From NCBI GenBank assembly GCA_023250675.1, contig JAHFAE010000001.1, forward strand, positions 31,635 through 95,634: 64,000 bases of DNA. The letters run 5' to 3'. The notes beneath the pieces were generated by a model. The model searched no databases and was not told where the DNA came from. It worked only from the letters and a program-made list of their open reading frames with translations. Made by a program: the position numbers and the translations under genes. Shown one piece after another: positions 1,965-32,199 of this stretch. This stretch comes from Oligoflexia bacterium. Its GTDB lineage: Bacteria; Bdellovibrionota; Bdellovibrionia; JABDDW01. Within the stretch, counting starts at the first letter, position 1. Each line of letters opens with the position of its first letter.

Positions 1965-3005
1965 ATGAAATCACCAAAGAAACGCGATCTTGCAAAAGAT
2001 CTTGTGGACTTCCTGCTCACTGAAGAAGATCAAGGCAAGGCCGTGCCAAAAAAAGACGCATCTGAAGATTCCTCAGAAATGCCGACAGCGCAAATCTCAT
2101 TAGAGCCTCCTGAGTTTGATTTGAATTTAGGCGATGAAAAAGTGCCAGAAGTCAACTTTGTCAATCCAACATCGAAAGCGCAAGAGTTGACGAAACCTTT
2201 GCCTGCAAAAAACTTTAAACTTAAACCCGCGAAGCCCGAACCAGCCAAACAGGAGCCTTCAGAAGAACCAACTTACGATGTCTCAAAGGAATCTGCCAGA
2301 GACCGTAATCAAACTGTAAAAATAGAATCAAGCGTAGAAAAGGTTGTGCCATTTAAAAATGGACCGCAAGCCATACCAACTTCAGGAAGGGGTAAACAAA
2401 TTCTCAATGAAGTAAATGCTTTAGCGGGAAGTGTGGAAGCCATAAGGGTAGCACAGGGGCGAATCGTCGCGGTCGAAAAAGAAAAGGATTACTTTAGAAA
2501 CGAGTCAGAAAAGCTTCTTGTGGCTTCAGAAAAATACCAACATCATGTTTTTGAATTAAAAGCCAAACTTGAAACTCTAGAGAGAAAGCACAAGGAAAAA
2601 GTAGAAATTTTAGAAGAAGAAAAATTGGTTCTTAAAACACGGCTCGCGGTTCGAGAGACAGAATTGGGGCAACTCAAAAGTGATCATGTTGACTTTCAAT
2701 CTCGTTTTCAAAACGAGGTACGTAAAGTCAGGGTGAGAGAACGGGAACTTGAAAATCGTTATGAATTATTAAAGGCCGAAGAATCGGCACTCTTACAAAC
2801 TAAAGATGAAACCATATTGCAATTGAAGCGTCAGCTCGAACAGCTCCATTTTGAAATTGAAAATTTTAGAGTTAAATCAGCAGATTTAAATACTAAGATA
2901 AACGATTTTCACGATCGTAATCACAAAACGGTAAAAGCATTAAGACTGGCACTTAACATTTTAGAAATAGGAGACGGCGATGATCCTAAAAAGGCAACAG
3001 GATGA
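1965..3005 (+). CDS. Hypothetical protein. The N-terminal half is Pro/Glu/Lys-rich low complexity and the C-terminal half is a long coiled coil.
   Basis: 346-aa ORF with no TM segment and a heptad-rich C-terminus ('LKAKLETLERKHKEKVEILEEEKLVLKTRL...'). Its stop overlaps the start of the next gene (ATGA at 3002). Confidence 0.6.
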   Translation: MKSPKKRDLAKDLVDFLLTEEDQGKAVPKKDASEDSSEMPTAQISLEPPEFDLNLGDEKVPEVNFVNPTSKAQELTKPLPAKNFKLKPAKPEPAKQEPSEEPTYDVSKESARDRNQTVKIESSVEKVVPFKNGPQAIPTSGRGKQILNEVNALAGSVEAIRVAQGRIVAVEKEKDYFRNESEKLLVASEKYQHHVFELKAKLETLERKHKEKVEILEEEKLVLKTRLAVRETELGQLKSDHVDFQSRFQNEVRKVRVRERELENRYELLKAEESALLQTKDETILQLKRQLEQLHFEIENFRVKSADLNTKINDFHDRNHKTVKALRLALNILEIGDGDDPKKATG

Positions 3006-4411
3006 GAGAAAACCGAATCATTTTTCTTGATGATGATCCTAAAACAGGTCAACGTCTAAAGCGAAGTCTGGAAGAGAAGGGGTTTAAGATTGTTGAACCC
3101 CAAGACATGAACGAGGCTAGCCTCGAAGTCATTCATAATGGCGCAGAGCTTTTCATTCACGTTGCCCATAAATCTAAAACTTACTGGAGTCTATGTGAGG
3201 ACTTTTTCAAGCATTTTCCGCAATTTTCAAGCATTCATTTTGCCAGTGGCCCTGAGTCCGAAGAATATTTAAAGAAAATGAAAGGACCGTTTCATCATCG
3301 AATGCGTCACCTTATGCCTGAAAAGGAATTTCTAAAAAAAGTTAGAAAACTCATATTCTTTAACAGAATTCGTCGTGAAAATCTCCTTTTGAAGAAAACT
3401 TTGGAGCTCAATCAGCAATCTGAAAAATTATTTTCCACCTTAGATCTCGAAACTTTAAAGAAAGAGTTTGTAGAATTTTTTAAGACTCAATCTAAAGGTG
3501 AGAATGCCTTCTTTCTGGTTCCTGGTTATTACGGTTATCTTATTAAAGAGGGCTGGAATGTCACCCCCATTCAAGCTCATGGGGACAAAATTAAGAAGCA
3601 AAAATATAGTGTTGTGTCGGCTGTTCCGTGTGACGAGCAAGAATTAGCTGATATTTTTCAAACTGCTACAGATTTTTTACCTACGGGTTGGGAATTGCAT
3701 AAGAATAAATTATTTATTAAACGTCAAGGGCAAATGAAATGTTCTGCATGGATTCTTCCCATTATAGGGCATGAATCGGGTCGAATATTTGGGCATATTC
3801 TCATCACTAACCCCATTTTTGATAAAGAATCAGTTATGATGAATGCCCTCCCCCATATGATGAAAGTGCTTGGGAGACATTTTGAACACGTCAATAGCTT
3901 TTCTGATGCGAAGAGTCTCAGTTACATCGATGATCTCACTGATCTTTACAATCAAAGATATTTGCGACTAATTTTGGACAAAGAAATAGATCGATGCCAA
4001 CGAACAAATTCATGCTTTTCAGTTTTATTTATGGACATTGATCATTTCAAAAGAGTTAATGATAGCCGGGGGCATCTTGTAGGAAGTAAACTTCTCGTGG
4101 CGCTTTCAAAAATATTGCATGCCAATATCAGAACTTCTGACTATGGATTTAGATACGGGGGAGATGAGTTCCTCCTTGTTCTCGTAGGCACTGGTAGCGA
4201 AACGGCATTGACTGTTGCAGAAAGAATTAGAAAACGGGTTGAAGAGGCTACATTTGATATAGAAGGCGTAAAAATTAAAATGACATTAAGTGTAGGAATC
4301 GCCACCTATCCAGATCACGCGTCTTCGAGGGATCAAATTATAGAGATTGCCGATAAAGCGATGTACAGCGGCAAGAGTAAGTCTCGCAATATTGTCTACG
4401 TAGCAAGTTGA
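3002..4411 (+). CDS. GGDEF-domain nucleotidyl cyclase of the Hypr (Ser-for-Asp) type, DgcA/Bd0367-like, with an N-terminal receiver-like domain
   Basis: Active site 'RYGGDEF'. I-site 'RTSD' sits 5 residues upstream. The base-selectivity position reads 'NDSRGHLVGSKLL' (GS instead of canonical GD). The N-terminus 'IIFLDDDP...' resembles a degenerate REC domain. Confidence 0.85.
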   Translation: MRENRIIFLDDDPKTGQRLKRSLEEKGFKIVEPQDMNEASLEVIHNGAELFIHVAHKSKTYWSLCEDFFKHFPQFSSIHFASGPESEEYLKKMKGPFHHRMRHLMPEKEFLKKVRKLIFFNRIRRENLLLKKTLELNQQSEKLFSTLDLETLKKEFVEFFKTQSKGENAFFLVPGYYGYLIKEGWNVTPIQAHGDKIKKQKYSVVSAVPCDEQELADIFQTATDFLPTGWELHKNKLFIKRQGQMKCSAWILPIIGHESGRIFGHILITNPIFDKESVMMNALPHMMKVLGRHFEHVNSFSDAKSLSYIDDLTDLYNQRYLRLILDKEIDRCQRTNSCFSVLFMDIDHFKRVNDSRGHLVGSKLLVALSKILHANIRTSDYGFRYGGDEFLLVLVGTGSETALTVAERIRKRVEEATFDIEGVKIKMTLSVGIATYPDHASSRDQIIEIADKAMYSGKSKSRNIVYVAS

Positions 4412-4414
4412 AAA

Positions 4415-5494
4415 ATGAGAAAAATAAAGCTTGTTGTCAGTGATTTTCATCTGGGAAAAGGACAAGTCCTACGTGATGGTTCACTCAATATTTTTGAAGA
4501 ATTCTATTATGACGACAAGTTTACTGAATTTTTAGACTATTACTCAACGGGCGAATTTGAAAATGCCGAAGTTGAACTCGTTATTAACGGCGATTTCTTT
4601 AACCTTCTGCAGACTGACTATAAGGGGCATTTTACTACGGTTTTGACCGAACCTATGGATCTCCACAAAGTAAAATCTATTATAGATGGACATCGTATTA
4701 TATTTGAAGCCCTAAGACGGTTTGCCTCTAGAGCCAATAAGCGGATCACCTATATTGTTGGTAATCATGATCAAGGGATGCTTTGGCAAAAGACTCGAGA
4801 ATATCTCGATGAGTTCTGTGGCACACGAATCAATTACAAGAACATAGTCTATTTTTTTGATGGGGTACATATTGAGCATGGCCACCAGCACGAAGCGGCA
4901 AATCGTATTGACCCGAAGAAATTTTTCCTAAAACAGAATTTACCCGAGCCGATTTTAAATCTACCTTGGGCTTCTCACTTTTTTGTCAATTTTGTATTGA
5001 AAATAAAAGAACAAATGCCCTATGTAGATAAAGTAAGGCCATTTCACTCATTTATTCGTTGGGGACTTATTAACCAATTTGGTTTTTCTATAAAAACCAT
5101 TTTTCGACTATTATGGAATCTCATTGTCAATGGCTTGGGTCGAGATTATCGTCGGCAGCGTTTTTCGTTAAGAACAAATCTACAAATTATAAAGGAAAGT
5201 GCTATTTTTCCTGATCTAGAGAATTCTGCACGTAAAATTCTAGCCGATGACAGGGTGCACACCGTAGTTTTTGGTCACACACACGTTTACCTCTATCGAC
5301 AATGGGGTAATAACAAAGAGTATATCAATACAGGAACGTGGACAGAGATAACAAGTCTTGATATTGCAAACTTAGGAAAAATAACAAAGCTGACCTATGT
5401 TCTTATTGAATATCCCAATGAGGGTGGTCGGCCCAGAGCCAGACTCAAAGAGTGGCGTGGGCATTATCGAGTTGAGTTTGACGTTGCAATTTAA
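4415..5494 (+). CDS. Calcineurin-like metallophosphoesterase, LpxH-like
   Basis: Motifs 'SDFHLGKG', 'INGDFFN', 'VGNHDQG', 'IEHGHQHE', 'VVFGHTHVY' align with the LpxH/MPE motif set. It starts 3 nt after the GGDEF gene. Confidence 0.75.
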   Translation: MRKIKLVVSDFHLGKGQVLRDGSLNIFEEFYYDDKFTEFLDYYSTGEFENAEVELVINGDFFNLLQTDYKGHFTTVLTEPMDLHKVKSIIDGHRIIFEALRRFASRANKRITYIVGNHDQGMLWQKTREYLDEFCGTRINYKNIVYFFDGVHIEHGHQHEAANRIDPKKFFLKQNLPEPILNLPWASHFFVNFVLKIKEQMPYVDKVRPFHSFIRWGLINQFGFSIKTIFRLLWNLIVNGLGRDYRRQRFSLRTNLQIIKESAIFPDLENSARKILADDRVHTVVFGHTHVYLYRQWGNNKEYINTGTWTEITSLDIANLGKITKLTYVLIEYPNEGGRPRARLKEWRGHYRVEFDVAI

Positions 5495-5518: not shown

Positions 5519-6670
5519 ATGATTTTCAGCCAAGAACAAGAAATGTTAGCAAAAACCGTCCGCGATTTCGCCGAGAAAGAGTTAGCACCTGGTGCAGCCA
5601 CAAGAGACGAAAAAGAATCATTTGATCGAGAGCTTTTTGTAAAACTCGGTGAATTGGGATTATTGGGGATAACAGTTCCAGAACAATATGGTGGGTCTGG
5701 ATTAAATGCCACCGCTGCCACAATTGTCATGGAAGAACTCGGTGCTGTTTGCGCTTCTACTGCCTTGTCCTATCTCGCCCATTCTATGCTGGCGGTGCAC
5801 AATTTAAGTGTAAATGGGAGTGAAGACCAAAAAAAGAAATATCTTCCTAAATTATGTAGCGGAGAATGGATCGGTGGCATGGGAATGACCGAACCTGGAG
5901 CGGGAAGTGACTTGCTGGGAATGAAAACCAAAGCCGAAAAAAAAGGAAATGTCTATTTACTCAACGGGACAAAGACTTTCATTACTAATGGGTCGGTTGG
6001 AGATTTTTTTCTGTGTTATGCACGAATTGGTTCAGAGAAAAAAGCGATTGGAACCTTTTTAGTAGAGAAAAGTTTTAAGGGCTTTAGTGTAGGCAAAAAA
6101 CTTCACAAGCTTGGCATGCGGGCTAGTCCGACGAGCGAGCTAGTTTTTGAAAACTGTGAAGTGCCAAAAGAAAACTTAGTGGGCCGCGAAGGTGAAAGTG
6201 TGGGCCACATGATGCGAAACCTCAATATTGAAAGGGTAACCATTGCTGGAATTAGTAATGGAATCGCTCGCGCGGCTTTGGATTTTTCAAACAAGTATTC
6301 TACACAGAGGCGGCAATTTGAAAGACCCATTGGCCACTTTCAGATGGTACAAAAGATGATCGCAGACAACTTTTCTCATTACATGGCAAGTCGTGCCTTG
6401 ACGTTTCATTGTGCAAAACTTGTGGATGATCAAAAAGGTTCAAACCTGATGGCTGCCGCTTGCAAAGTATTCGCTGCTGAAATGGCCACGAAGGTAGCTC
6501 TTAACGCTATACAAATTTTAGGTGGCTACGGTTATACCAAAGAGTATCCAGTAGAACGCTTTATGAGAGATGCAAAACTTATGGAGATCGGCGCTGGAAC
6601 TAGCGAAGTCATGCGCCTGATTATAGCCCGCGATCTATTAAAAGAAATCGATTCTAGCTATGACTGGTGA
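5519..6670 (+). CDS. Acyl-CoA dehydrogenase (isovaleryl/short-chain type)
   Basis: 383 aa with 'GMTEPGAGSD', 'YGGYGYTKEYPVERFMRDAK' and other ACAD motifs. Confidence 0.9.
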   Translation: MIFSQEQEMLAKTVRDFAEKELAPGAATRDEKESFDRELFVKLGELGLLGITVPEQYGGSGLNATAATIVMEELGAVCASTALSYLAHSMLAVHNLSVNGSEDQKKKYLPKLCSGEWIGGMGMTEPGAGSDLLGMKTKAEKKGNVYLLNGTKTFITNGSVGDFFLCYARIGSEKKAIGTFLVEKSFKGFSVGKKLHKLGMRASPTSELVFENCEVPKENLVGREGESVGHMMRNLNIERVTIAGISNGIARAALDFSNKYSTQRRQFERPIGHFQMVQKMIADNFSHYMASRALTFHCAKLVDDQKGSNLMAAACKVFAAEMATKVALNAIQILGGYGYTKEYPVERFMRDAKLMEIGAGTSEVMRLIIARDLLKEIDSSYDW

Positions 6671-7943: not shown

Positions 7944-8861
7944 ATGTCGGAAGAAAGTAAGTTAGATAAAACAAGCGTCGTTGACGGAGATACACTTAAA
8001 ATTAGGTTGGACGAAGTCCGTAAACGGCCTCCCGCATTGATTTTACTCATGGGCCCCACAGGCCTAATTGGTAAACAATGGCCTATTGATAAGAACGAAA
8101 TGTACATTGGCCGAGATATTAGTTGCGATGTGCAAATCGATGAAAAAAGCCTAAGTAAAAAACACGCAAAAATCGTCAAAAGCCAAGATGAAGTGTCTAT
8201 CATTGACCAAAAATCAACAAATGGCACGGAAATCTGCGGTGTAAAGCTAGAGCCCTTCGTCCCGTTATTATTAAATAATAACGATAGTATTAAACTTGGG
8301 AACATTATTTTTAAATTTGCCGAACAAGGTGCTTTAGATTCTGTTATGACAGCCATAAATTTTGATCGTGGCAATATGGATGGCTTGACTCAAGTTCTAA
8401 ATAAGGCCGCCATTCTGCGAAACCTGGATGAGAGTTTTAAAAAGGCCCTGCTCACAGAGACCAATTTGTCCCTTATCGTTTTTGATTTAGACCACTTTAA
8501 GAAAATTAACGATGCTCATGGTCATCAATGCGGCGACTACGTGTTGAGAGAAGTTTCTAATGTGGTCAAAAATCAACTTATTCGCTCAGGTGACACTTTT
8601 GGCAGGTACGGGGGCGAAGAATTTGTCATCATTTTATACGGCAGCTCACTCCAGAGAAGTTGCGATGTGGCAGAACGTATCCGTGCGACTATCGAAAAAC
8701 ACGATTTTGTTTTTGCCGCGGAAAAAATTCCAGTAACGGTTTCTCTTGGTGTTGCGTCACTGGATGGCAATATGAAAGGTCCCGAAGCTCTGTTCGCAAA
8801 AGCTGACAAAGCAACTTATGTGAGTAAGGGCGCCGGGCGCAATCGTGTCTCCACTATTTGA
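7944..8861 (+). CDS. FHA-domain diguanylate cyclase (FHA-GGDEF, DgcB-like)
   Basis: N-terminal FHA ('YIGRDISCDVQIDEKSLSKKHAKI...STNGT'). C-terminal GGDEF with 'RYGGEEF', I-site 'RSGD' and the canonical 'GHQCGDYVL'. Confidence 0.85.
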   Translation: MSEESKLDKTSVVDGDTLKIRLDEVRKRPPALILLMGPTGLIGKQWPIDKNEMYIGRDISCDVQIDEKSLSKKHAKIVKSQDEVSIIDQKSTNGTEICGVKLEPFVPLLLNNNDSIKLGNIIFKFAEQGALDSVMTAINFDRGNMDGLTQVLNKAAILRNLDESFKKALLTETNLSLIVFDLDHFKKINDAHGHQCGDYVLREVSNVVKNQLIRSGDTFGRYGGEEFVIILYGSSLQRSCDVAERIRATIEKHDFVFAAEKIPVTVSLGVASLDGNMKGPEALFAKADKATYVSKGAGRNRVSTI

Positions 8862-10904: not shown

Positions 10905-11510
10905 ATGAAAGCAGATTTAGACCTGGTCAAAGAAGTTAAACATGGCGACAAATCCGCTTTTTCAGAGCTTGTGCGAAGGCACCAGAAAGCTCTCTACAGA
11001 TTGGCTTTGCGATTTGCCAAAGACCATGGAACAGCTGAGGATATTGTGCAAGAGAGTTTTGTTAAGGCCTATCAAAAGATAAATTCGTTTGAAGAGCGAA
11101 GCAGTTTCAAAAGCTGGCTGTTTCGGATCGCAATTAATACTAGTAAGAACAAGCTCCGTGGTCCCAGTCAATCCGAAGTCGATATCGAAGATGTGACACT
11201 GTCGGTTGATGCTAAAATTGAAAGTGATTTTGAATTTAAAGAGACTCAAAACTTTGTCTTAACCGAAGTCGAAAAATTGCCAGAAAGGCAAAGGACTGCA
11301 TTAACATTAAGAGTTTTCGAAGAAATGAGTTTTCAAGAAATTGCTACGATTATGAATTGCCCCTACGATACTGCGAAGGCCAACTATCGCCACGCTGTAT
11401 TAAAAATCAAAAAAATTCTGGCTGATCGTCAGGTGTTTGATGCTGGAGGCGCAATGTCATCAGAAAAAATTTCAAACTCGACCATTAACTCTGAACCGAA
11501 TGGAGATTGA
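10905..11510 (+). CDS. ECF-type RNA polymerase sigma-70 factor
   Basis: Sigma region 2 ('ALYRLALRFAKDHGTAEDIVQESFVKAY', 'FKSWLFRIAINT') and region 4 ('ERQRTALTLRVFEEMSFQEIATIMNCPYDTAK'). Confidence 0.9.
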   Translation: MKADLDLVKEVKHGDKSAFSELVRRHQKALYRLALRFAKDHGTAEDIVQESFVKAYQKINSFEERSSFKSWLFRIAINTSKNKLRGPSQSEVDIEDVTLSVDAKIESDFEFKETQNFVLTEVEKLPERQRTALTLRVFEEMSFQEIATIMNCPYDTAKANYRHAVLKIKKILADRQVFDAGGAMSSEKISNSTINSEPNGD

Positions 11511-13048: not shown

Positions 13049-14089
13049 TTATTGAACAAACTCTTGAAGTTCTTTTGCAGGATCGGTAGATTTTTTTATT
13101 TCTTTAAAATGACTTATGAATTTGGGCCAATCTCGCCCCAGTTTGTCGAAGGCTTTTTGAAAAAGGGTGAGATCTTGATAATACGTTTTGTAACTCAGAA
13201 AAACGGCATTGTTGAGTTTTTGTTTTGAAAAATTCTTAAATGTCGCTGATTTAAGTTTTAGACTGCAAGACTGATCAAAGTTTGATTTTATAAGGGCGAA
13301 TGTCTTATCTCGATCGTCCATGAGAGTGGCTGAGCCCTTGTTTTCTGAATAAAATTTTTCCAACTTTTTGATTTCATCACTTATAAATTGGCTGAAAATT
13401 TTGGAATCTTCTGAAATAAGATGGGCCTTGGCAATATTGGGAGAATCTCCGCCCTCTGTTTCCTCATAGAAAGACTCCATACCTTGATTGCCTACAAATG
13501 TGGCGAGTCTTTCATTAAAGTCCGCATTGTTTTTAATGTATAAAGTTGCATGAGTTGTTTCATGAATAACCGTTTCTACCAAATCATGGTCGTCAAAAGC
13601 CGTCATGCTTGACAATAGGGGGTCTGAAAACCAGCCCAGGGTTGAGTAGGCACTGACACCTCTTTCCATAACATCTAAATTTTGATTTTCAAGGGCGGCT
13701 TTCTCGTCGTCAGCATCGGTTTTTTTAAAAAAGCCTTTATAGGGAACTTTACCTACAATAGGAAAGCTCCAAGTAAAAGCTTCTAAGCGATCTTTGTAGC
13801 TGGCCGTAACTGCGTAGACTACGTATTTGTCATCGAGTAAAACAAATGTTTCGTAATTGTTTGTGTGAATCAGAGAGAGCTTTTGTTCTGCGTATTTTTT
13901 GACCACAGAGATAAGTCTAATCTTTCGTTTCGTCTCATCATCTATATTGGGATCTTTCAGAGCATCTTCAAAACTTCTTCTTTGTGAGAGAAGCTTAATT
14001 TGATAGTAACTAGATTTAACCAAGTATCCGAGTTGGCAACTTGGTAAAAAAAATATGAAAAACGAATAGATAAGAATTTTTTTCGTCAA
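13049..14089 (-). CDS. Predicted zinc aminopeptidase-like lipoprotein
   Basis: 'LPSC' lipobox-like N-terminus and an HExxH-type 'VIHETTHATLY' motif. Resembles the 'predicted aminopeptidase' COG family. Confidence 0.55.
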   Translation of the reverse strand: MTKKILIYSFFIFFLPSCQLGYLVKSSYYQIKLLSQRRSFEDALKDPNIDDETKRKIRLISVVKKYAEQKLSLIHTNNYETFVLLDDKYVVYAVTASYKDRLEAFTWSFPIVGKVPYKGFFKKTDADDEKAALENQNLDVMERGVSAYSTLGWFSDPLLSSMTAFDDHDLVETVIHETTHATLYIKNNADFNERLATFVGNQGMESFYEETEGGDSPNIAKAHLISEDSKIFSQFISDEIKKLEKFYSENKGSATLMDDRDKTFALIKSNFDQSCSLKLKSATFKNFSKQKLNNAVFLSYKTYYQDLTLFQKAFDKLGRDWPKFISHFKEIKKSTDPAKELQEFVQ

Positions 14090-16822: not shown

Positions 16823-17431
16823 TTGTCCGATAAGGTCAATATGACTAAGAAAACGGGCAAGGTCGACACCGAACCGAAGAATAATGTCATCAATTTAACT
16901 GAAAGACTTAAGAAATCTGGCAAGACAACTTCGACCAAAATTAACGAACTTAAAGAGGTTCATGTCACCGAGCCTAAAATCATAGACATTACTGATCGCC
17001 GAAAAGAGAAAATTGCAGCAGAGAGACGATTTGTAACACGAACTGTCTTAGCGCAATTTGTGGGCGTATTTGTGGTTTTGCCCAAGATTCGCACGGTGAG
17101 CGGAACGGTGCCAGGTCTTCAGCCCGTTGCGCTCCATGACGTTTCGGAAAGTGGTCTTTCTTTTGATCTTCCCTTCGAAACCGGAGCTTTTGATATTGGC
17201 GAAAGTGTGACGATGAGAATCTACTTAAGTCACGATACATATTTTAGCTACGGCGTTAAAGTTGCTAATGTTAGGCCTGTTCCAGAAAAAGGTGTAATGC
17301 GCCATGGAACGGTTCTCACCAAAGATGACGAGTCCTATAGAACATTGTTTTATTTCATGAAGTTTTTAGAAAACGTCAGTTCAGTTGCGAAGAAAGACAA
17401 TGGTGACCGCCTCATTGGTCGCGTCGACTAG
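16823..17431 (+). CDS. PilZ-domain c-di-GMP receptor
   Basis: 'ERRFVTR' (RxxxR) followed by 'DVSESGLSF' (DxSxxG) at PilZ spacing. Confidence 0.65.
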   Translation: MSDKVNMTKKTGKVDTEPKNNVINLTERLKKSGKTTSTKINELKEVHVTEPKIIDITDRRKEKIAAERRFVTRTVLAQFVGVFVVLPKIRTVSGTVPGLQPVALHDVSESGLSFDLPFETGAFDIGESVTMRIYLSHDTYFSYGVKVANVRPVPEKGVMRHGTVLTKDDESYRTLFYFMKFLENVSSVAKKDNGDRLIGRVD

Positions 17432-17556: not shown

Positions 17557-18891
17557 TTGAGTAAGACATTACCGATCCGTAAACGTTTCATAATCGACAC
17601 CAACGTCATACTATTTGACCCACAAGCCATCTTTAAGTTTCAAAATGGTGACATAATTATTCCCATTTCTGTTATTGAAGAAATGGATCGGTTCAAAAAA
17701 GATTTAGGTGAAAATGGTCGCAACGCGAGACAATTCTCCCGTTTTGTCGACGTTCTAAGAACAAAGGGTGCTTTAAGTAAAGGGGTATTGCTAGAAAAAA
17801 GTCATAGCTATTTTTTCGTGAATCTTGATTCCCATACCGATGTTTTGCCGGAAGATTTATCACCCGGTAAAGCTGACAATCGCATTTTGGCTCTGGCCAT
17901 GAAAATGCAAAAAGAAAAGCCACCAAAACCGACGGTGCTTATCACAAAAGATACCAACCTTCGTATCAAGGCTGATGTACTGGGAATTCCTGCAGAAGAT
18001 TACGAACCCCAAAAAGTAGATATTGAAGATCTATTTAGCGGAACCACCGAGTATGAAGTCAGTGCCGATGCTATCGATAGTTTTTATGCCGACAAAAAAA
18101 TGTCTATTAGCGATCAGAATATTGCGGCCAACCAGTATATTATATTTAAAGACATTACTAACCCCAACCACAGCGCCATTGCACGGTACAACGCCGTCAC
18201 AAAGTGCGCGGTTCCACTTATAAAACCCACCGATAATGTTTGGGGTATTTACCCAAGAAATGTGGAACAAAGTTTTGCGCTAGATTGTTTATTAAACGAC
18301 GAGATCAAACTGGTTTCTCTTGTCGGAAAAGCAGGCACAGGAAAGACCTTGCTTGCCTTGGCGGCTGGCCTTTCAAAAACTCTTGATGATAGCAAATACC
18401 ATCGGCTTTTGGTGAGTAGGCCCATTTTTCCCATGGGTCGTGACATCGGTTATTTGCCTGGAGACGTTGAAGAGAAACTTAATCCTTGGATGCAACCCGT
18501 TTTCGATAACATCGAGTATCTGCTCGGGTCAGGCACCAGCCAAAAACGAGCGGCCGGGCGGTGCCAAGAATTGATCAGCCAAGGCATGCTCAATATCGAA
18601 CCACTTACCTATATTAGGGGAAGAAGTATACCCAACCAATATCTCATTGTGGACGAAGCACAGAACCTAACACCCCATGAGATCAAGACCATTATCACCC
18701 GAGCGGGCCAGGGCACAAAAGTCGTTCTGACCGGTGATTGCTATCAGATTGATAATCCCTACGTGGATTCGGCCAATAACGGTCTTACCTATGTGGTTGA
18801 GCGATTTAAACAAGAGGGCATCGCTGCCCACGTGACATTGTCTAAAGGGGAAAGGTCTGAATTAGCAGAATTGGCTGCCAACCTCCTTTAG
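17557..18891 (+). CDS. PhoH2-type protein (N-terminal PIN domain fused to a PhoH ATPase)
   Basis: PIN N-terminus ('IIDTNVIL...IPISVIEE'), Walker A 'GKAGTGKT', PhoH core 'VVLTGDCYQID'. Confidence 0.85.
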   Translation: MSKTLPIRKRFIIDTNVILFDPQAIFKFQNGDIIIPISVIEEMDRFKKDLGENGRNARQFSRFVDVLRTKGALSKGVLLEKSHSYFFVNLDSHTDVLPEDLSPGKADNRILALAMKMQKEKPPKPTVLITKDTNLRIKADVLGIPAEDYEPQKVDIEDLFSGTTEYEVSADAIDSFYADKKMSISDQNIAANQYIIFKDITNPNHSAIARYNAVTKCAVPLIKPTDNVWGIYPRNVEQSFALDCLLNDEIKLVSLVGKAGTGKTLLALAAGLSKTLDDSKYHRLLVSRPIFPMGRDIGYLPGDVEEKLNPWMQPVFDNIEYLLGSGTSQKRAAGRCQELISQGMLNIEPLTYIRGRSIPNQYLIVDEAQNLTPHEIKTIITRAGQGTKVVLTGDCYQIDNPYVDSANNGLTYVVERFKQEGIAAHVTLSKGERSELAELAANLL

Positions 18892-29420: not shown

Positions 29421-30782
29421 ATGAATTGCGAAAATATGAATAAGTTTCTTACACTAATTAAGTCAAGACATCAAATTGAGGGAACTAGACCATTGTCCAA
29501 CGAGAACGAAGACGATTTAAAGGCAGAGAAAAAACTCAAAGAGCTTGAGCGCAATCTTGCCAAAGAGCTAGACCAACAGGTTCGTCTCACCGAGGCCTCT
29601 GACTCAAGACTTGATGGGTCCGTCATGCTTAATCCCAACTTAGATGTAAGTACAACCAAAGCAAAAAAAGGAGGTGCCGATCTCGCAGGTCTTGCGAAAT
29701 TAGTGGAGCCGGCTCATAAGGACGGGCACGGAGTTGCCAAGATTTCAGACGACACGGTAGTTAAGACTGGGACCCCGCCCCCTGGGGTGGTACCACCGGG
29801 AGAAAAGCATTTTGAAGAACTAAGTCTTAGTGAAATCGATGGACTTTTAAATCAGTTGGATGAGGGTTTTCAAAAAAGTCTCGAGGGACTAAAAACAGAT
29901 TTAAGTGACCTTAAGCTCCCTGAAAAGGGATTTGAGTCAATGAGCATTGGGGCTGACTACCTCCAAGGATTTGAAACAAAATCAGATGGCGAATCTAAAG
30001 CCATATTGGCTGGCGTGCGGGAATTACAAAAAGTTGTAAAGCCACGACTTTTTCCTTCTTTATTTTTATTGATGAAAAACTTTACAAATATTTTCAGTCA
30101 TATGGGCAACTCGTTACTCATAAGTATTAAGAGCTATCGAAAAAAACCAAATAAAGAGATCATGGCTCATTTTGTTTCAGAATTAAAAGAGACAAAGAAC
30201 CTGATCCCTCCTGTTATTCAATCTGGCAAAACATTCGTCACTGTCATTTTCGGCTATGATCGTGTTACCTACACAAAATTTTTGATTTCGCTCATTCTCA
30301 TTTCATTACTATATTATTTGGTCTTAGACATCAGAGAGCACCTCAAGCCAGACAGCGAGCGTGATCCATTCTTGAGAAGTTTTAATGATGTCGCAAATCT
30401 GATTCAGGTCATGCCAGAAGAAGAGGGTCAATCAGAAGATGATTTAGATGTAGAAAGTGCCATTCGCCACCCAGAATTCACTTACCTCATTCACCGCATT
30501 GTAGCCAATCTTAAACCCCCCTCTTCACGTCGAACGCCCATGGCGGCTATTGAATTATTTTTAGAAGCCACGAGCCGAGAGTGTGCCGTAGAAATTCACG
30601 ACAGAGAAAATGAAGTGAGAGATGCCATTGAGAGAACAATTGAAGAAACAACCTTTGATGAAATTGATTCTCCTCATGGCAAAATTCATTTGAAAAATAA
30701 AATTCGCACTTCACTCAATCGATTACTCAATCGAGGAAACATAAAAACCGTTTTTTTCAAGAACATTACTTTTCACCGATAA
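29421..30782 (+). CDS. Hypothetical protein: acidic coiled N-terminus, central hydrophobic segments
   Basis: 453-aa ORF with no recognisable catalytic motifs. Hydrophobic stretch 'FLISLILISLLYYLVL'. Confidence 0.4.
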   Translation: MNCENMNKFLTLIKSRHQIEGTRPLSNENEDDLKAEKKLKELERNLAKELDQQVRLTEASDSRLDGSVMLNPNLDVSTTKAKKGGADLAGLAKLVEPAHKDGHGVAKISDDTVVKTGTPPPGVVPPGEKHFEELSLSEIDGLLNQLDEGFQKSLEGLKTDLSDLKLPEKGFESMSIGADYLQGFETKSDGESKAILAGVRELQKVVKPRLFPSLFLLMKNFTNIFSHMGNSLLISIKSYRKKPNKEIMAHFVSELKETKNLIPPVIQSGKTFVTVIFGYDRVTYTKFLISLILISLLYYLVLDIREHLKPDSERDPFLRSFNDVANLIQVMPEEEGQSEDDLDVESAIRHPEFTYLIHRIVANLKPPSSRRTPMAAIELFLEATSRECAVEIHDRENEVRDAIERTIEETTFDEIDSPHGKIHLKNKIRTSLNRLLNRGNIKTVFFKNITFHR

Positions 30783-30819: not shown

Positions 30820-32199
30820 TTAGATTTGTTTGATGAGCTCTTTAACATTGATCTCGTATGCCCTGATACGATCGTGAAGAGTGCTTTTGGCAAGGCCAAG
30901 ATCTGCAGCAGTTTTTCTTTGATTACCGAGATTTGCAATGAGTCGGCACTTAATCATTTCTTTTTCAACTTCTTTCATAAGTGGAATTTGCGTTTGTTTT
31001 AAAAAAAGTGGAGTGAAAGCTGGTTTTTCGCTTATGGGAATATTGGGTTTATCTAGAATCACTCTTAAGTGTTCGGGCTCAATATAGGTTTTTGGAAACA
31101 GCGCCGAAGCTCGAGCAACAATATTTTTCAATTCTCTGATGTTTCCAGGCCAAGAGTAAGATCTGAGTTCTTCTATGGCTTGCACAGAAAACGCTACATG
31201 GGTTTGACGACAAAAGAAATAGAGTAGGTCATTGAAGTCCTCCATTCGATCTCGAAGGGCAGGAATTGGAATCTTTATGACATGCATTCTAAAAAAGAGA
31301 TCCGCTCTGAATTGGCCTTCATTGACCATCTTTTGAAGATCTTTATGCGTAGCCGTAATGATACGAACATTTGTTTCGACTATGCGGTCACATCCAACGG
31401 GTCTTATTTCTTTATTTTCAAGGGCTCTTAAAAGTTTTGGTTGAAGGGTAAGTGGCAAATCGCCAATTTCATCTAGAAAGAGTGTTCCATTTCTAGCTGC
31501 TTCAAAAGCGCCTTTGCGGTCGGATTGGGCACCCGTAAAGCTTCCCTTTAAATGCCCGAAGAGTTCAGACTCAACAAGAGATTCGGTGAGAGCGCTGCAG
31601 TTGACGCTTATAAAGGGCCATTTTTTTCTGTGACTTTGATCGTGAATGACTTTTGCGAGTACTTCTTTTCCACAACCACTTTCTCCTTGGAGGAAGACGG
31701 GGAGATCAGTTTTTGACAATTGACTTATGGTTCTTAATCTCAAAGTCCAATCTTTATTTCGTGAACTCAGGGGCAAATCTTCAAGTTGGGGCAATTCATT
31801 GTCGCACTCTGTTTGAAATAGAAATTCTGTATTGCCAATTTGTATATGGCTGCCATTTAAAAGCTGACCTTCGTGAATTTTTAAGCCATTGACTCTTACC
31901 CCGTTGAGGCTGTTGAGGTCTTTTAAAAAAAAACCATTTGGTCTGCGTTCAAACTTGCAATGGTATGCACTGACATGGGGATCACTAATGCAGTAATGGT
32001 TTCCGGGATCTCGACCCATCTCAATAATGCCTTCAATGGGAATTTTCAGGCCCCCAGCAATGGGTATGATATAGGCCCCTTTTTCAGAGTTAATGAGTTC
32101 ACCGACGTTAAGTGTTTGATTGATCATAGCAATCCCCTTTTCACAAATCGTGCCGGCCACAGCTCTGCTTTTATTTGATTTGAGGATTAGATGGCGCAA
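30820..32199 (-). CDS. Sigma-54-dependent transcriptional activator with an N-terminal FHA domain
   Basis: FHA ('GRDPGNHYCISDPHVSAYHCKFE...SLNGVRVNG'), AAA+ Walker A 'GESGCGKE', GAFTGA-like 'GSFTGA', C-terminal HTH. Confidence 0.85.
   Translation of the reverse strand: MRHLILKSNKSRAVAGTICEKGIAMINQTLNVGELINSEKGAYIIPIAGGLKIPIEGIIEMGRDPGNHYCISDPHVSAYHCKFERRPNGFFLKDLNSLNGVRVNGLKIHEGQLLNGSHIQIGNTEFLFQTECDNELPQLEDLPLSSRNKDWTLRLRTISQLSKTDLPVFLQGESGCGKEVLAKVIHDQSHRKKWPFISVNCSALTESLVESELFGHLKGSFTGAQSDRKGAFEAARNGTLFLDEIGDLPLTLQPKLLRALENKEIRPVGCDRIVETNVRIITATHKDLQKMVNEGQFRADLFFRMHVIKIPIPALRDRMEDFNDLLYFFCRQTHVAFSVQAIEELRSYSWPGNIRELKNIVARASALFPKTYIEPEHLRVILDKPNIPISEKPAFTPLFLKQTQIPLMKEVEKEMIKCRLIANLGNQRKTAADLGLAKSTLHDRIRAYEINVKELIKQI

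What the first reader, a model, noticed from the sequence alone, without database searches (positions are those of the whole stretch)
1965..5494. Translationally coupled trio: coiled-coil protein, Hypr-type (Ser-for-Asp) GGDEF cyclase, LpxH-like metallophosphoesterase
The GGDEF protein at 3002-4411 has an intact active site (RYGGDEF) and I-site (RTSD).

At the position that reads the Watson-Crick edge of the substrate base it has Gly-Ser ('NDSRGHLVGSKLL'). The other GGDEF protein in this window (7944-8861) has the canonical Gly-Asp ('NDAHGHQCGDYVL'). Ser at this position is the published hallmark of hybrid-promiscuous (Hypr) GGDEF enzymes such as Geobacter GacA and Bdellovibrio Bd0367/DgcA, which make 3',3'-cGAMP rather than c-di-GMP.

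The gene is bracketed, with ATGA and 3-nt junctions, by two partners:
(a) A 346-aa protein that is half low-complexity (Pro/Glu/Lys) and half long coiled coil.
(b) A 359-aa calcineurin-type metallophosphoesterase with every metal-ligand motif intact. It is most reminiscent of LpxH (a pyrophosphatase) and of the cyclic-dinucleotide phosphodiesterase class of MPEs.

The three ORFs look like one operon. A synthase/hydrolase/scaffold arrangement for a cGAMP signal is a plausible role. I am not aware that any role for the two partner genes has been described.
Basis: partly seen in the sequence, partly recalled or inferred. Interest (0 to 1): 0.72.

Follow-up and report, generated by a model that had tools for sequence, protein, structure and literature searches.

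The report
Hypr GGDEF inside Bdellovibrio polar operon
A predicted cGAMP-making enzyme is encoded between a probable cell-pole scaffold protein and an LpxH-shaped phosphoesterase in a gene cluster shared by many relatives of the predator Bdellovibrio; this ties a rare signal to the prey-invading pole, but the two partner genes persist without the enzyme.

Summary
Three same-strand ORFs (1965-3005, 3002-4411, 4415-5494) are joined by an ATGA overlap and a 3-nt gap.

The middle protein has every sequence hallmark of a Hypr GGDEF: Ser362, Gln318, GGDEF rather than GGEEF, and an RxxD I-site. Its best solved relative is Geobacter GacA.

- The flanking genes are orthologues of B. bacteriovorus Bd0739 and Bd0740. 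Bd0739 is a RomR-binding protein of the invasive pole needed for prey attachment. Bd0740 is a calcineurin-like gene in the dgcB operon. So roles have been described.
- The block pfkB-CC-[GGDEF]-MPE-[pgi]-dgcB is conserved in 80 Bdellovibrionota genomes. The Hypr gene is present in 22 of 76 informative loci, all on deep branches, and has co-diverged with the phosphoesterase. It looks ancestral and was lost at least three times, including in cultured Bdellovibrio.
- An HD-GYP cGAMP phosphodiesterase (Bd2325) is already known.

Nothing here shows cGAMP hydrolysis.

The parts
1965..3005 (+). Coiled-coil (CC) protein, 346 aa; orthologue of the B. bacteriovorus gene directly upstream of the MPE (Bd0739 by gene order)
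   Evidence: ORF. 39% identity (E 4e-38) over the C-terminal 190 aa to L001:4692-5999. A CC homologue lies upstream of the MPE in 75 of 76 informative loci. The family is 'hypothetical protein' throughout Bdellovibrio.
1965..2414 (+). N-terminal low-complexity K/P/E/S-rich half of the CC protein (residues 1-150); poorly conserved
   Evidence: Composition K13 P11 E11 S8 %. tblastn matches in other genomes mostly begin after residue ~100-150.
2430..2969 (+). Conserved helical, coiled-coil-like C-terminal half (residues ~156-335)
   Evidence: Composition E14 L13 K11 R8 %, with 2 Pro/Gly in 176 residues. Weak hits to IFT57, Filament, CENP-F and SMC families. This is the conserved block.
3002..4411 (+). 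Hypr-type GGDEF cyclase, 469 aa; its start overlaps the CC stop (ATGA)
   Evidence: Orthologues sit at the same position in 22 loci and in L097.
3002..3361 (+). Pseudo-receiver domain (residues ~1-120): LDDDP acidic pocket kept, but His53 (3158-3160) sits where the phospho-acceptor Asp should be
   Evidence: A profile of the N-terminal 300 residues hits receiver domains in the PDB (PhoP 1mvo E 3.3e-8). There 'LivlDvml' aligns with 'Lvlhgahk'. 4 of 34 orthologues give weak Pfam Response_reg hits. Alignment.
3389..3901 (+). Middle domain of unknown fold (residues ~130-300); fast-evolving; retained in short orthologues that lack the pseudo-receiver
   Evidence: No PDB or Pfam match. Short 313-362 aa forms start in this domain.
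3923..4390 (+). GGDEF catalytic domain (residues 308-463). Gln318 at 3953-3955, Asn353 at 4058-4060, Ser362 at 4085-4087, I-site RTSD at 4130-4141, GGDEF at 4157-4171
   Evidence: Pfam E 4.4e-45. Best PDB hit is 6d9m, the GacA Hypr domain, at E 2.4e-44 versus 4.7e-34 for the next. Codons checked. Invariant columns.
4415..5494 (+). LpxH-fold metallophosphoesterase (MPE), 359 aa; orthologue of B. bacteriovorus Bd0740
4886..5260 (+). Helical cap insertion (residues ~158-282, six helices) between the HGH and GHTH metal motifs, at the same topological site as the LpxH helical insertion domain but about twice as long
   Evidence: DSSP helices 185-200, 210-220, 222-241, 244-248, 252-262, 269-276. The LpxH insertion domain is residues 119-173 (PMC5016852). 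Cap motifs PILNLPWGS and RPY.DKV.PF are conserved in 85 family representatives.
7944..8861 (+). Context: DgcB (Bd0742) orthologue, an FHA-GGDEF cyclase with canonical Asp and GGEEF; downstream end of the conserved block
   Evidence: PDB 6HBZ (B. bacteriovorus DgcB) at E 4.7e-82 (PMC6733907). An FHA-GGDEF gene lies downstream of the MPE in 60 of 64 loci, directly adjacent in 12.

Best explanation
The trio is the upstream part of a conserved Bdellovibrionota gene cluster for signalling at the prey-invading cell pole: pfkB - CC - [Hypr GGDEF] - MPE - [acyl-CoA dehydrogenase] - [pgi] - dgcB.

Shown here:
- The CC protein and the MPE are the orthologues of the B. bacteriovorus genes directly upstream of pgi (Bd0741) and dgcB (Bd0742), that is Bd0739 and Bd0740.
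- The cyclase between them carries all sequence determinants of a Hypr GGDEF.
- It has co-diverged with the MPE. It is present on all deep branches of the MPE tree and missing from three derived clades. So the three-gene state is probably ancestral, and the cyclase was lost or replaced in Bdellovibrio proper.
- The cyclase has a non-phosphorylatable pseudo-receiver plus an unknown middle domain.
- The MPE has an LpxH-like fold with a large helical cap, but a His where LpxH has its hallmark Arg.

Inferred:
1. The cyclase makes mainly 3',3'-cGAMP, with some c-di-GMP. It is feedback-inhibited through its RxxD I-site. It is switched by protein or ligand contacts of its pseudo-receiver and middle domains, not by Asp phosphorylation.
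2. The CC protein, like Bd0739, binds the RomR hub. It places the co-translated cyclase, and perhaps the MPE, at the invasive pole, giving a local signal next to the DgcB/CdgA c-di-GMP circuit.
3. The MPE hydrolyses an amphipathic (lipid- or nucleotide-linked) phosphate or pyrophosphate ester held under its cap, using LpxH-like chemistry on another substrate. It is not the dedicated cGAMP phosphodiesterase. Its partnership is with the CC protein, which it keeps when the cyclase is absent.
For: Orthology and synteny:
- B. bacteriovorus order is CC(435 aa)-MPE-PGI-FHA-GGDEF.
- CC homology.
- the FHA-GGDEF there is PDB 6HBZ (DgcB).
- 80 loci. CC lies upstream in 75 of 76, the cyclase is present in 22 of 76, and dgcB lies downstream in 60 of 64.

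Ancestry of the cyclase:
- in the MPE tree all basal lineages carry the cyclase.
- Mantel r = 0.65 between MPE and GGDEF distances, matched by 0 of 2000 permutations.
- a further trio (L097) with a short cyclase.

Hypr features:
-, read against PMC6456294. That paper reports that Ser348 goes with GGDE[F/Y] exclusively, and that Gln, Tyr, Ser or Ala at the cross-dimer site gives mainly cGAMP.

Pseudo-receiver.

MPE:
- (fold).
- (no LpxH-level sequence match).
- (H118 at least 90% conserved).
- PMC5016852 (Arg80 universal in LpxH).
- distant homologues sit beside a PgsA-like gene, LptD and FadL.

Polar role of Bd0739: bioRxiv 10.1101/2023.11.29.569176 and PMC6561027.
Against: - No biochemical data exist for any of the three window proteins.
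- Bd0739 = CC rests on gene order and numbering, not on a labelled sequence (one search returned only 'hypothetical protein').
- The Bd0739 transposon phenotype could be polar on dgcB (my inference).
- The whole block also contains plainly unrelated housekeeping genes (pfkB, pgi, an acyl-CoA dehydrogenase). Synteny within this order is therefore weak evidence of functional coupling.
- The lipid-type substrate is inferred only from fold and from a handful of heterogeneous neighbourhoods.
- The tree is neighbour-joining with midpoint rooting, built on MAG-derived sequences.
- The 80 loci are only the closest of 353 relatives found.
Confidence: 0.5

Rival explanations
1. First reader's model. The trio is a self-contained cGAMP module: the Hypr GGDEF makes cGAMP, the MPE degrades it (or its linear product pApG), and the CC protein scaffolds the two.
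For: - The junctions are tight: ATGA and a 3-nt gap.
- The trio is conserved and probably ancestral.
- The MPE sits between two GGDEF cyclases (Hypr and DgcB) in the ancestral arrangement.
- All MPE catalytic residues are intact, including the classic phosphodiesterase His118.
- B. bacteriovorus, which keeps CC+MPE, still has a Hypr enzyme elsewhere, Bd0367 (PMC9140294).
Against: - CC and MPE are adjacent without the cyclase in 54 of 76 loci.
- Homologues at 26-45% identity keep the cap motifs but lie beside lipid, envelope or unrelated genes, never beside GGDEF genes.
- cGAMP-selective degradation in Bdellovibrio is already assigned to the HD-GYP enzyme Bd2325 (10.1101/600031).
Confidence: 0.15
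2. The MPE is a protein phosphatase that resets the phospho-Thr tail that activates DgcB, as proposed for Bd0740. The Hypr cyclase and the CC protein are simply further members of the same dgcB operon.
For: - The hypothesis is published for Bd0740 (PMC6733907).
- An FHA-GGDEF dgcB orthologue lies downstream in 60 of 64 loci and directly next to the MPE in 12.
- The MPE belongs to the calcineurin-like superfamily.
Against: - It lacks the PPP signatures GDxHG and GDxVDRG; its motifs are SDFHLG and NGDFFN.
- A 125-residue helical cap over the active site, as in LpxH, fits a small amphipathic substrate better than a protein tail (inference).
- Family members occur in other phyla without an adjacent FHA-GGDEF gene.
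Confidence: 0.12
3. There is no functional link. The three genes are neighbours only because this chromosomal block is syntenic across Bdellovibrionales. The MPE is a housekeeping lipid or nucleotide-sugar enzyme (at the extreme, the true LpxH), and the Hypr cyclase acts elsewhere.
For: - The conserved block also holds pfkB, pgi and, in the window's subclade, an inserted acyl-CoA dehydrogenase.
- The cyclase is dispensable at this locus.
- The MPE is highly conserved: 60-80% identity across the order, and about 1,295 representative clusters at E<=1e-10.
- It has an LpxH-like fold, and JGI labels homologues 'LpxH'.
Against: - Start/stop overlap and a 3-nt gap suggest coupled translation.
- The CC-MPE pairing survives where everything around it varies.
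- Authentic LpxH is excluded by His118 in place of the Arg (PMC5016852), by the absence of any LpxH model among the hits, and by a separate gene annotated lpxH in B. bacteriovorus (PMC12448681).
Confidence: 0.2

Closest known systems
Geobacter GacA (Gmet_1914/GSU1658), the founding Hypr GGDEF (PDB 5VS9/6D9M)
   Same: - Best solved relative of the window cyclase: E 2.4e-44 over 162 residues.
- The GHLVGS motif is identical, with Ser at position 348.
- Shares Asn339, the GGDEF motif with central Asp, and the RxxD I-site.
   Different: - GacA has Tyr at the cross-dimer position 304; the window protein has Gln318.
- GacA is driven by a receiver domain. The window protein has a pseudo-receiver (His53 in place of the acceptor Asp) plus an extra ~170-residue middle domain.
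- The genomic context differs, and no cGAMP riboswitch is detectable in the window.
Bdellovibrio bacteriovorus Bd0367 (DgcA), a Hypr GGDEF controlling gliding exit from prey
   Same: - Same phylum and same Ser-for-Asp signature (Ser214 in Bd0367).
- Makes cGAMP and c-di-GMP in vivo (PMC9140294).
   Different: - Bd0367 has a canonical receiver with phospho-site D74 and is about 135 residues shorter upstream of the Ser (PMC9140294). The window protein cannot be Asp-phosphorylated at the equivalent site.
- Judging by its locus number, Bd0367 lies elsewhere on the chromosome. No GGDEF gene lies between the CC and MPE genes in cultured Bdellovibrio.
- None of the best 120 homologues is labelled B. 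bacteriovorus, and the shorter ones show no receiver domain at the N terminus. All contexts examined are at the CC/MPE locus.
LpxH (UDP-2,3-diacylglucosamine pyrophosphatase) and its paralogue LpxH2 of unknown substrate
   Same: - Dinuclear MPE core with a helical insertion domain at the same site.
- Like LpxH2, the window MPE keeps His in the third motif (PMC3087551).
   Different: - His118 replaces the universal LpxH Arg80 that binds the lipid X phosphate (PMC5016852).
- 359 aa versus ~240 aa, with a cap about twice as long.
- No LpxH model hit. PDB LpxH sequences reach only E 0.07-1.5 with an 85-sequence profile.
- Membership of LpxH2 could not be tested because no LpxH2 sequence or model was at hand.
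B. bacteriovorus Bd0739 / Bd0740 (upstream genes of the dgcB operon)
   Same: - Orthologous by sequence and position.
- Bd0739 is a RomR partner at the invasive pole, and its transposon mutant is attachment-defective (10.1101/2023.11.29.569176; PMC6561027).
- Bd0740 is a calcineurin-like putative phosphatase (PMC6733907).
   Different: - In B. bacteriovorus the two genes abut each other (5999/6001 in L001). In the window a Hypr GGDEF gene lies between them, and an acyl-CoA dehydrogenase gene follows the MPE.
- None of the published work mentions a cyclase at this position.
HD-GYP cGAMP phosphodiesterases (V-cGAPs, PmxA, Bd2325)
   Different: The fold and chemistry are unrelated (HD-GYP versus calcineurin-like MPE). 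No HD-GYP gene is part of the trio.

Membership tests
Hypr GGDEF (GMP-AMP cyclase subclass of GGDEF) | Ser/Thr instead of Asp at the base-reading position (GacA Ser348) | tested here: met
   Ser362 (AGT, 4085-4087) aligns with Ser348 of 6d9m. It is invariant in 22 syntenic and 33 database orthologues.
Hypr GGDEF (GMP-AMP cyclase subclass of GGDEF) | GGDE[F/Y] with central Asp (the Ser/GGEEF combination is inactive; 'Goldilocks' rule) | tested here: met
   RYGGDEF at 4157-4171. All orthologues have GGDEF or GGDEY and none has GGEEF. The rule comes from PMC6456294.
Hypr GGDEF (GMP-AMP cyclase subclass of GGDEF) | Cross-dimer residue (GacA Tyr304) is not the canonical residue. Tyr, Ser, Ala or Gln goes with mainly cGAMP; Arg goes with more c-di-GMP. 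| tested here: met
   Gln318 (CAA, 3953-3955) aligns with Tyr304. The NQ[RK] motif is conserved in all orthologues. The residue-product rule is from PMC6456294.
Hypr GGDEF (GMP-AMP cyclase subclass of GGDEF) | Intact GGDEF catalytic machinery (metal Asp residues, Asn339 equivalent, general-base Glu, phosphate-binding Lys/Arg) | tested here: met
   D345, D347, N353, D388, E389, K458 and R462 are invariant columns in the 34-sequence alignment.
Hypr GGDEF (GMP-AMP cyclase subclass of GGDEF) | Produces 3',3'-cGAMP from ATP + GTP | not testable with these tools
   Needs LC-MS or a biosensor assay on purified or expressed enzyme.
LpxH (UDP-2,3-diacylglucosamine pyrophosphatase) | Calcineurin-like dinuclear metal site (DxH, GD, GN, H, GHxH) | tested here: met
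   D10/H12, D60, N117, H155, H288/H290. They are invariant or near-invariant in 85 representatives.
LpxH (UDP-2,3-diacylglucosamine pyrophosphatase) | [quoted passage not shown] | tested here: met
LpxH (UDP-2,3-diacylglucosamine pyrophosphatase) | Arg replaces the His of the GNH(D/E) motif in all LpxH (Arg80 binds the lipid X phosphate) | tested here: not met
   GNHD with His118 (4760-4771), at least 90% conserved in the family. E. coli LpxH reads GNRD. The rule is from PMC5016852.
LpxH (UDP-2,3-diacylglucosamine pyrophosphatase) | Recognised by curated LpxH sequence models or close to solved LpxH sequences | tested here: not met
   NCBIfam gives only weak PdeM, YfcE and TIGR04168 hits and no LpxH model at E<=0.1. 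PDB LpxH chains score E 0.07-1.5 with the 85-sequence profile. hhalign probability is 12%.
LpxH (UDP-2,3-diacylglucosamine pyrophosphatase) | UDP-2,3-diacylglucosamine hydrolysis / complementation of lpxH | not testable with these tools
   Note that B. bacteriovorus carries another gene annotated lpxH in the ftsA-ftsZ operon (PMC12448681).
MPE-type cyclic-dinucleotide phosphodiesterases (CdnP / CpdB / SntA) | MPE domain fused to a 5'-nucleotidase C-terminal substrate-binding domain; exported enzyme | tested here: not met
PPP-family Ser/Thr protein phosphatases (the role proposed for Bd0740) | GDxHG, GDxVDRG and GNHE signature motifs and the PPP fold | tested here: not met
Bd0739-family polar coiled-coil proteins | Sequence homology to, and the same position as, the B. 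bacteriovorus gene upstream of Bd0740 | tested here: met
   39% identity, E 4e-38. A CC homologue lies upstream of the MPE, or of the inserted cyclase, in 75 of 76 loci. The Bd number was assigned by gene order relative to DgcB = 6HBZ.
Bd0739-family polar coiled-coil proteins | Binds RomR and localises to the invasive pole | not testable with these tools
   Shown only for B. bacteriovorus Bd0739 (10.1101/2023.11.29.569176).

The most novel reading that the evidence does not exclude
The trio is the ancestral cGAMP module of Bdellovibrionota.
- A RomR-binding polar adaptor recruits a pseudo-receiver Hypr cyclase.
- The LpxH-fold phosphoesterase is either a new, non-HD-GYP class of cGAMP or pApG hydrolase, or a cGAMP-controlled lipid-phosphate enzyme that remodels the envelope at the prey-contact pole.
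- Cultured Bdellovibrio would then be a derived state in which this cyclase was replaced by the receiver-regulated Bd0367.
Probability: 0.12. Interest if true: 0.8.

Novelty: new variant of a known kind. Interest (0 to 1): 0.5.

Why it matters
Hypr GGDEF enzymes are rare, and only a few (GacA, GacB, Bd0367) have been studied. In Bdellovibrio, cGAMP controls gliding exit from prey.

This finding defines a second, large and strictly conserved Hypr lineage in Bdellovibrionota. It has a different input: a pseudo-receiver plus an unknown domain. It also has a fixed genomic address, between the orthologue of a RomR-binding invasive-pole protein needed for prey attachment and an uncharacterised LpxH-fold enzyme, just upstream of dgcB, the cyclase that licenses prey invasion.

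This gives three testable links:
- between cGAMP signalling and the polar predation hub;
- an evolutionary scenario in which model Bdellovibrio strains lost this cyclase;
- a handle on two 'hypothetical' genes (Bd0739 and Bd0740) already implicated in predation.

It also corrects an automated 'LpxH' label that is spread over hundreds of database entries.

Tried and rejected
- **First AF2 model of the MPE.** Built from a shallow 20-sequence alignment, it had pLDDT 60. Its weak Foldseek hits were discarded in favour of the 85-sequence model.
- **Sequence-level link to LpxH.** phmmer and hmmsearch against PDB sequences and hhalign against E. coli LpxH gave only superfamily-level signals.
- **Wider neighbourhood survey.** I fell back on eight single look-ups, which is a small and heterogeneous sample.
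- **Locating Bd0367.** It was not recognisable among the best 120 homologues of the window cyclase, so the comparison with Bd0367 rests on the published description.
- **Labelled HD100 Bd0739 sequence.** The search returned only 'hypothetical protein' names.
- **Heptad periodicity of the CC protein.** The whole-segment Fourier test was not significant.
- **Defence-system reading.** PADLOC gave no hits for any of the three proteins.
- **cGAMP or c-di-GMP riboswitch and other RNAs.** There were no Rfam hits and no tRNAs in the window.
- **Operon boundaries.** The promoter and terminator scan was no better than shuffled sequence.
- **Middle domain of the cyclase.** It has no Pfam or PDB match.

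Full report
**1. Observation**

The junctions read caggATGAgag and TGAaaaATG.

Pfam finds a GGDEF domain at residues 308-463 (E 4.4e-45). It finds only a weak Metallophos match for the third protein (30 bits). For the first protein it finds nothing but sub-threshold coiled-coil families. All quoted motifs are present.

Tight spacing continues downstream:
- an acyl-CoA dehydrogenase gene, 24 nt after the MPE;
- pgi, overlapping the previous gene;
- an FHA-GGDEF gene;
- an overlapping Rsm22-like methyltransferase gene.

The consensus promoter/terminator scan is no better than shuffled sequence. The trio is therefore probably part of a longer transcription unit.

**2. The cyclase**

Its best solved relative is 6d9m, the Geobacter metallireducens GacA Hypr domain, at E 2.4e-44. 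The next hit scores 4.7e-34.

That alignment has a constant offset of 14 residues. It puts window residues on GacA residues as follows:
- Ser362 on Ser348;
- Asn353 on Asn339;
- Asp388 on Asp374;
- Gln318 on the cross-dimer residue Tyr304.

The GacA structure paper (PMC6456294) gives three rules:
- Ser348 is the signature difference from canonical GGDEFs.
- Natural Ser/Thr348 enzymes carry GGDE[F/Y] exclusively, because Ser/GGEEF is inactive.
- Hypr enzymes with Tyr, Ser, Ala or Gln at the cross-dimer site make mainly cGAMP, whereas Arg shifts the product towards c-di-GMP.

The window protein satisfies all three and keeps an RxxD I-site. The same Ser/Gln/GGDE[F/Y]/RxxD set is invariant in 22 syntenic orthologues and in 33 database orthologues that are only 30-57% identical overall. 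All but three of the best 120 hits show Ser and GGDE[F/Y]. This is strong purifying selection on the Hypr determinants.

The N-terminal 300 residues evolve much faster. A profile of them matches receiver domains (PhoP 1mvo, E 3.3e-8), but the phospho-acceptor Asp aligns with His53, so this is a pseudo-receiver. Residues ~130-300 match nothing. Bd0367, the characterised Bdellovibrio Hypr enzyme, instead has a canonical receiver (D74) and Ser214 (PMC9140294).

**3. Neighbourhood**

The MPE is 60-80% identical across Bdellovibrionota. I fetched the 80 closest loci from species-representative genomes and mapped the window's proteins onto them.

The block pfkB - CC - [GGDEF] - MPE - [pgi] - FHA-GGDEF is conserved:
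- A CC homologue lies upstream in 75 of 76 informative loci.
- An FHA-GGDEF gene lies downstream in 60 of 64, directly adjacent to the MPE in 12.
- The Hypr gene sits between CC and MPE in only 22 of 76.
- In all cultured Bdellovibrio the CC and MPE genes abut each other (for example 5999/6001 in L001).

On a neighbour-joining tree of the MPE, the cyclase-bearing loci occupy every deep branch. Three nested clades lack it. MPE and GGDEF-domain distances are correlated (Mantel r = 0.65, matched by 0 of 2000 permutations). The simplest reading is an ancestral three-gene state with at least three losses.

Shorter (313-362 aa) Hypr proteins that lack the pseudo-receiver occupy the same slot in other genomes. 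One such locus, with an MPE below the 80-locus identity cut-off, shows the full trio (L097).

**4. Identity of the partners**

In B. bacteriovorus the FHA-GGDEF gene of this block is DgcB/Bd0742. The L001 protein matches PDB 6HBZ at E 7.7e-177 and the window protein at 4.7e-82. Bd0741 is pgi. [quoted passage not shown] The CC gene directly upstream is therefore Bd0739; this is an inference from gene order.

Published findings on Bd0739:
- It was one of the two top hits of RomR proximity labelling.
- It was scored as a RomR partner in the POLAR assay.
- It co-localises with RomR at the invasive pole of released attack-phase cells (10.1101/2023.11.29.569176).
[quoted passage not shown] Polarity on dgcB cannot be excluded.

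**5. The phosphoesterase**

Sequence searches find no solved relative beyond generic MPE matches, and no LpxH model appears among the NCBIfam hits. JGI's 'LpxH' labels are not backed by any LpxH model match here.

An AlphaFold model built on 85 diverse family members is confident (pLDDT 94.2, pTM 0.93). Its matches are:
- Foldseek: the top 12 PDB hits are all LpxH (E 1e-8 to 3.5e-7).

The model has a six-helix cap (residues ~158-282) inserted between the HGH and GHTH motifs. This is the same site as the LpxH helical insertion domain that buries lipid X (PMC5016852).

However, the hallmark of LpxH is Arg80 replacing the catalytic His of GNH(D/E) 'in all species of known sequence'. That feature is absent: the family keeps GNHD, with His118 at least 90% conserved. 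In this it resembles LpxH2, whose substrate is unknown (PMC3087551). B. bacteriovorus also has a separate gene annotated lpxH (PMC12448681). So the MPE is LpxH-like in architecture but is not an LpxH.

**6. Wider family and substrate clues**

An exhaustive profile search finds 149 representative clusters at E<=1e-30 and 1,295 at E<=1e-10. Eight look-ups of members 26-45% identical to the window protein gave seven contigs with flanking genes. They show neither a CC homologue nor a GGDEF gene next door. The neighbours found were:
- a PgsA-like CDP-alcohol phosphatidyltransferase and LipB, both overlapping the MPE gene (L091);
- LptD (in Candidatus Alcyoniella);
- a FadL-type porin;
- an AI-2E-family transporter;
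- alpha/beta hydrolases.

The cap motifs are conserved across these members. This leans towards a common amphipathic or lipid-linked substrate, but the sample is small and heterogeneous.

For cGAMP degradation, the literature already supplies HD-GYP enzymes, including Bd2325 (10.1101/600031; PMC9140294).

**7. Synthesis**

- The Hypr assignment is as strong as sequence can make it.
- The trio is real, conserved and probably ancestral. Its constant core is CC+MPE, not the cyclase.
- The most economical explanation is a polar-signalling operon. A Bd0739-type RomR adaptor is co-expressed with a pseudo-receiver Hypr cyclase, an LpxH-fold hydrolase of unknown (probably amphipathic) substrate, and DgcB.
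- The cGAMP synthase/hydrolase/scaffold model remains possible but has no positive evidence. The DgcB-phosphatase model and 'mere synteny' are the other live rivals.

I rate it a new variant of a known kind. It is a distinct, previously undescribed Hypr lineage with a new input architecture and a fixed link to the invasive-pole gene cluster. It is of moderate interest.

**8. Caveats**

- Most loci come from MAGs.
- The tree is neighbour-joining with midpoint rooting.
- The 80 loci are the closest of 353 relatives detected.
- The Bd0739 assignment is positional.
- No activity, interaction or localisation has been tested for the window proteins.

Noticed in passing
window 7944-8861 (+): The FHA-GGDEF protein is the orthologue of B. 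bacteriovorus DgcB (Bd0742), the cyclase required for prey invasion. It matches PDB 6HBZ at E 4.7e-82 over residues 29-303. It has the canonical Gly-Asp and a GGEEF motif.
   Followed up: partly
window 5519-6670 (+): An acyl-CoA dehydrogenase gene lies between the MPE and pgi only in the window's own subclade (window, L005, L006, L007). This shows the block tolerates insertions of unrelated genes.
   Followed up: partly
L097 6001-6975; also L037, L052, L056: Short Hypr GGDEF proteins (313-362 aa) that lack the pseudo-receiver but keep the middle domain occupy the same slot between the CC and MPE genes. The receiver-like module is therefore dispensable in some lineages.
   Followed up: partly
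L091 4354-6835: In an unidentified lineage, an MPE homologue (~42% identity) overlaps an upstream PgsA-like CDP-alcohol phosphatidyltransferase gene and a downstream lipB gene. L092 shows the same MPE-lipB pairing. This is a possible clue to a lipid-linked substrate.
   Followed up: partly
window 16823-17431 (+): A small PilZ-domain protein (Pfam E 6.4e-6) lies about 11 kb downstream of the trio. It is a candidate cyclic-dinucleotide receptor.
   Followed up: no
window 30820-32199 (-) and 29421-30782 (+): An FHA-domain sigma-54 activator lies next to an unusually long (453 aa) protein with a C-terminal FliL domain. This is more FHA-based signalling in the same region.
   Followed up: no
window 10905-11510 (+), 13049-14089 (-), 17557-18891 (+): An ECF sigma factor and a putative aminopeptidase (PF10023) are syntenic with their counterparts in L097. 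Further downstream lies a PIN-PhoH ATPase. All look like ordinary chromosomal context.
   Followed up: no
window 4157-4175 (+): The only terminator-like hit inside the trio is the GGGGGAGATGAGTTC codon run that encodes GGDEF. It is a false positive of the consensus scan.
   Followed up: yes
database entries P0002, P0005, P0006 and many others: JGI annotation labels this MPE family 'UDP-2,3-diacylglucosamine pyrophosphatase LpxH'. The family lacks the LpxH-defining Arg and matches no LpxH model, so the label is probably wrong.
   Followed up: yes
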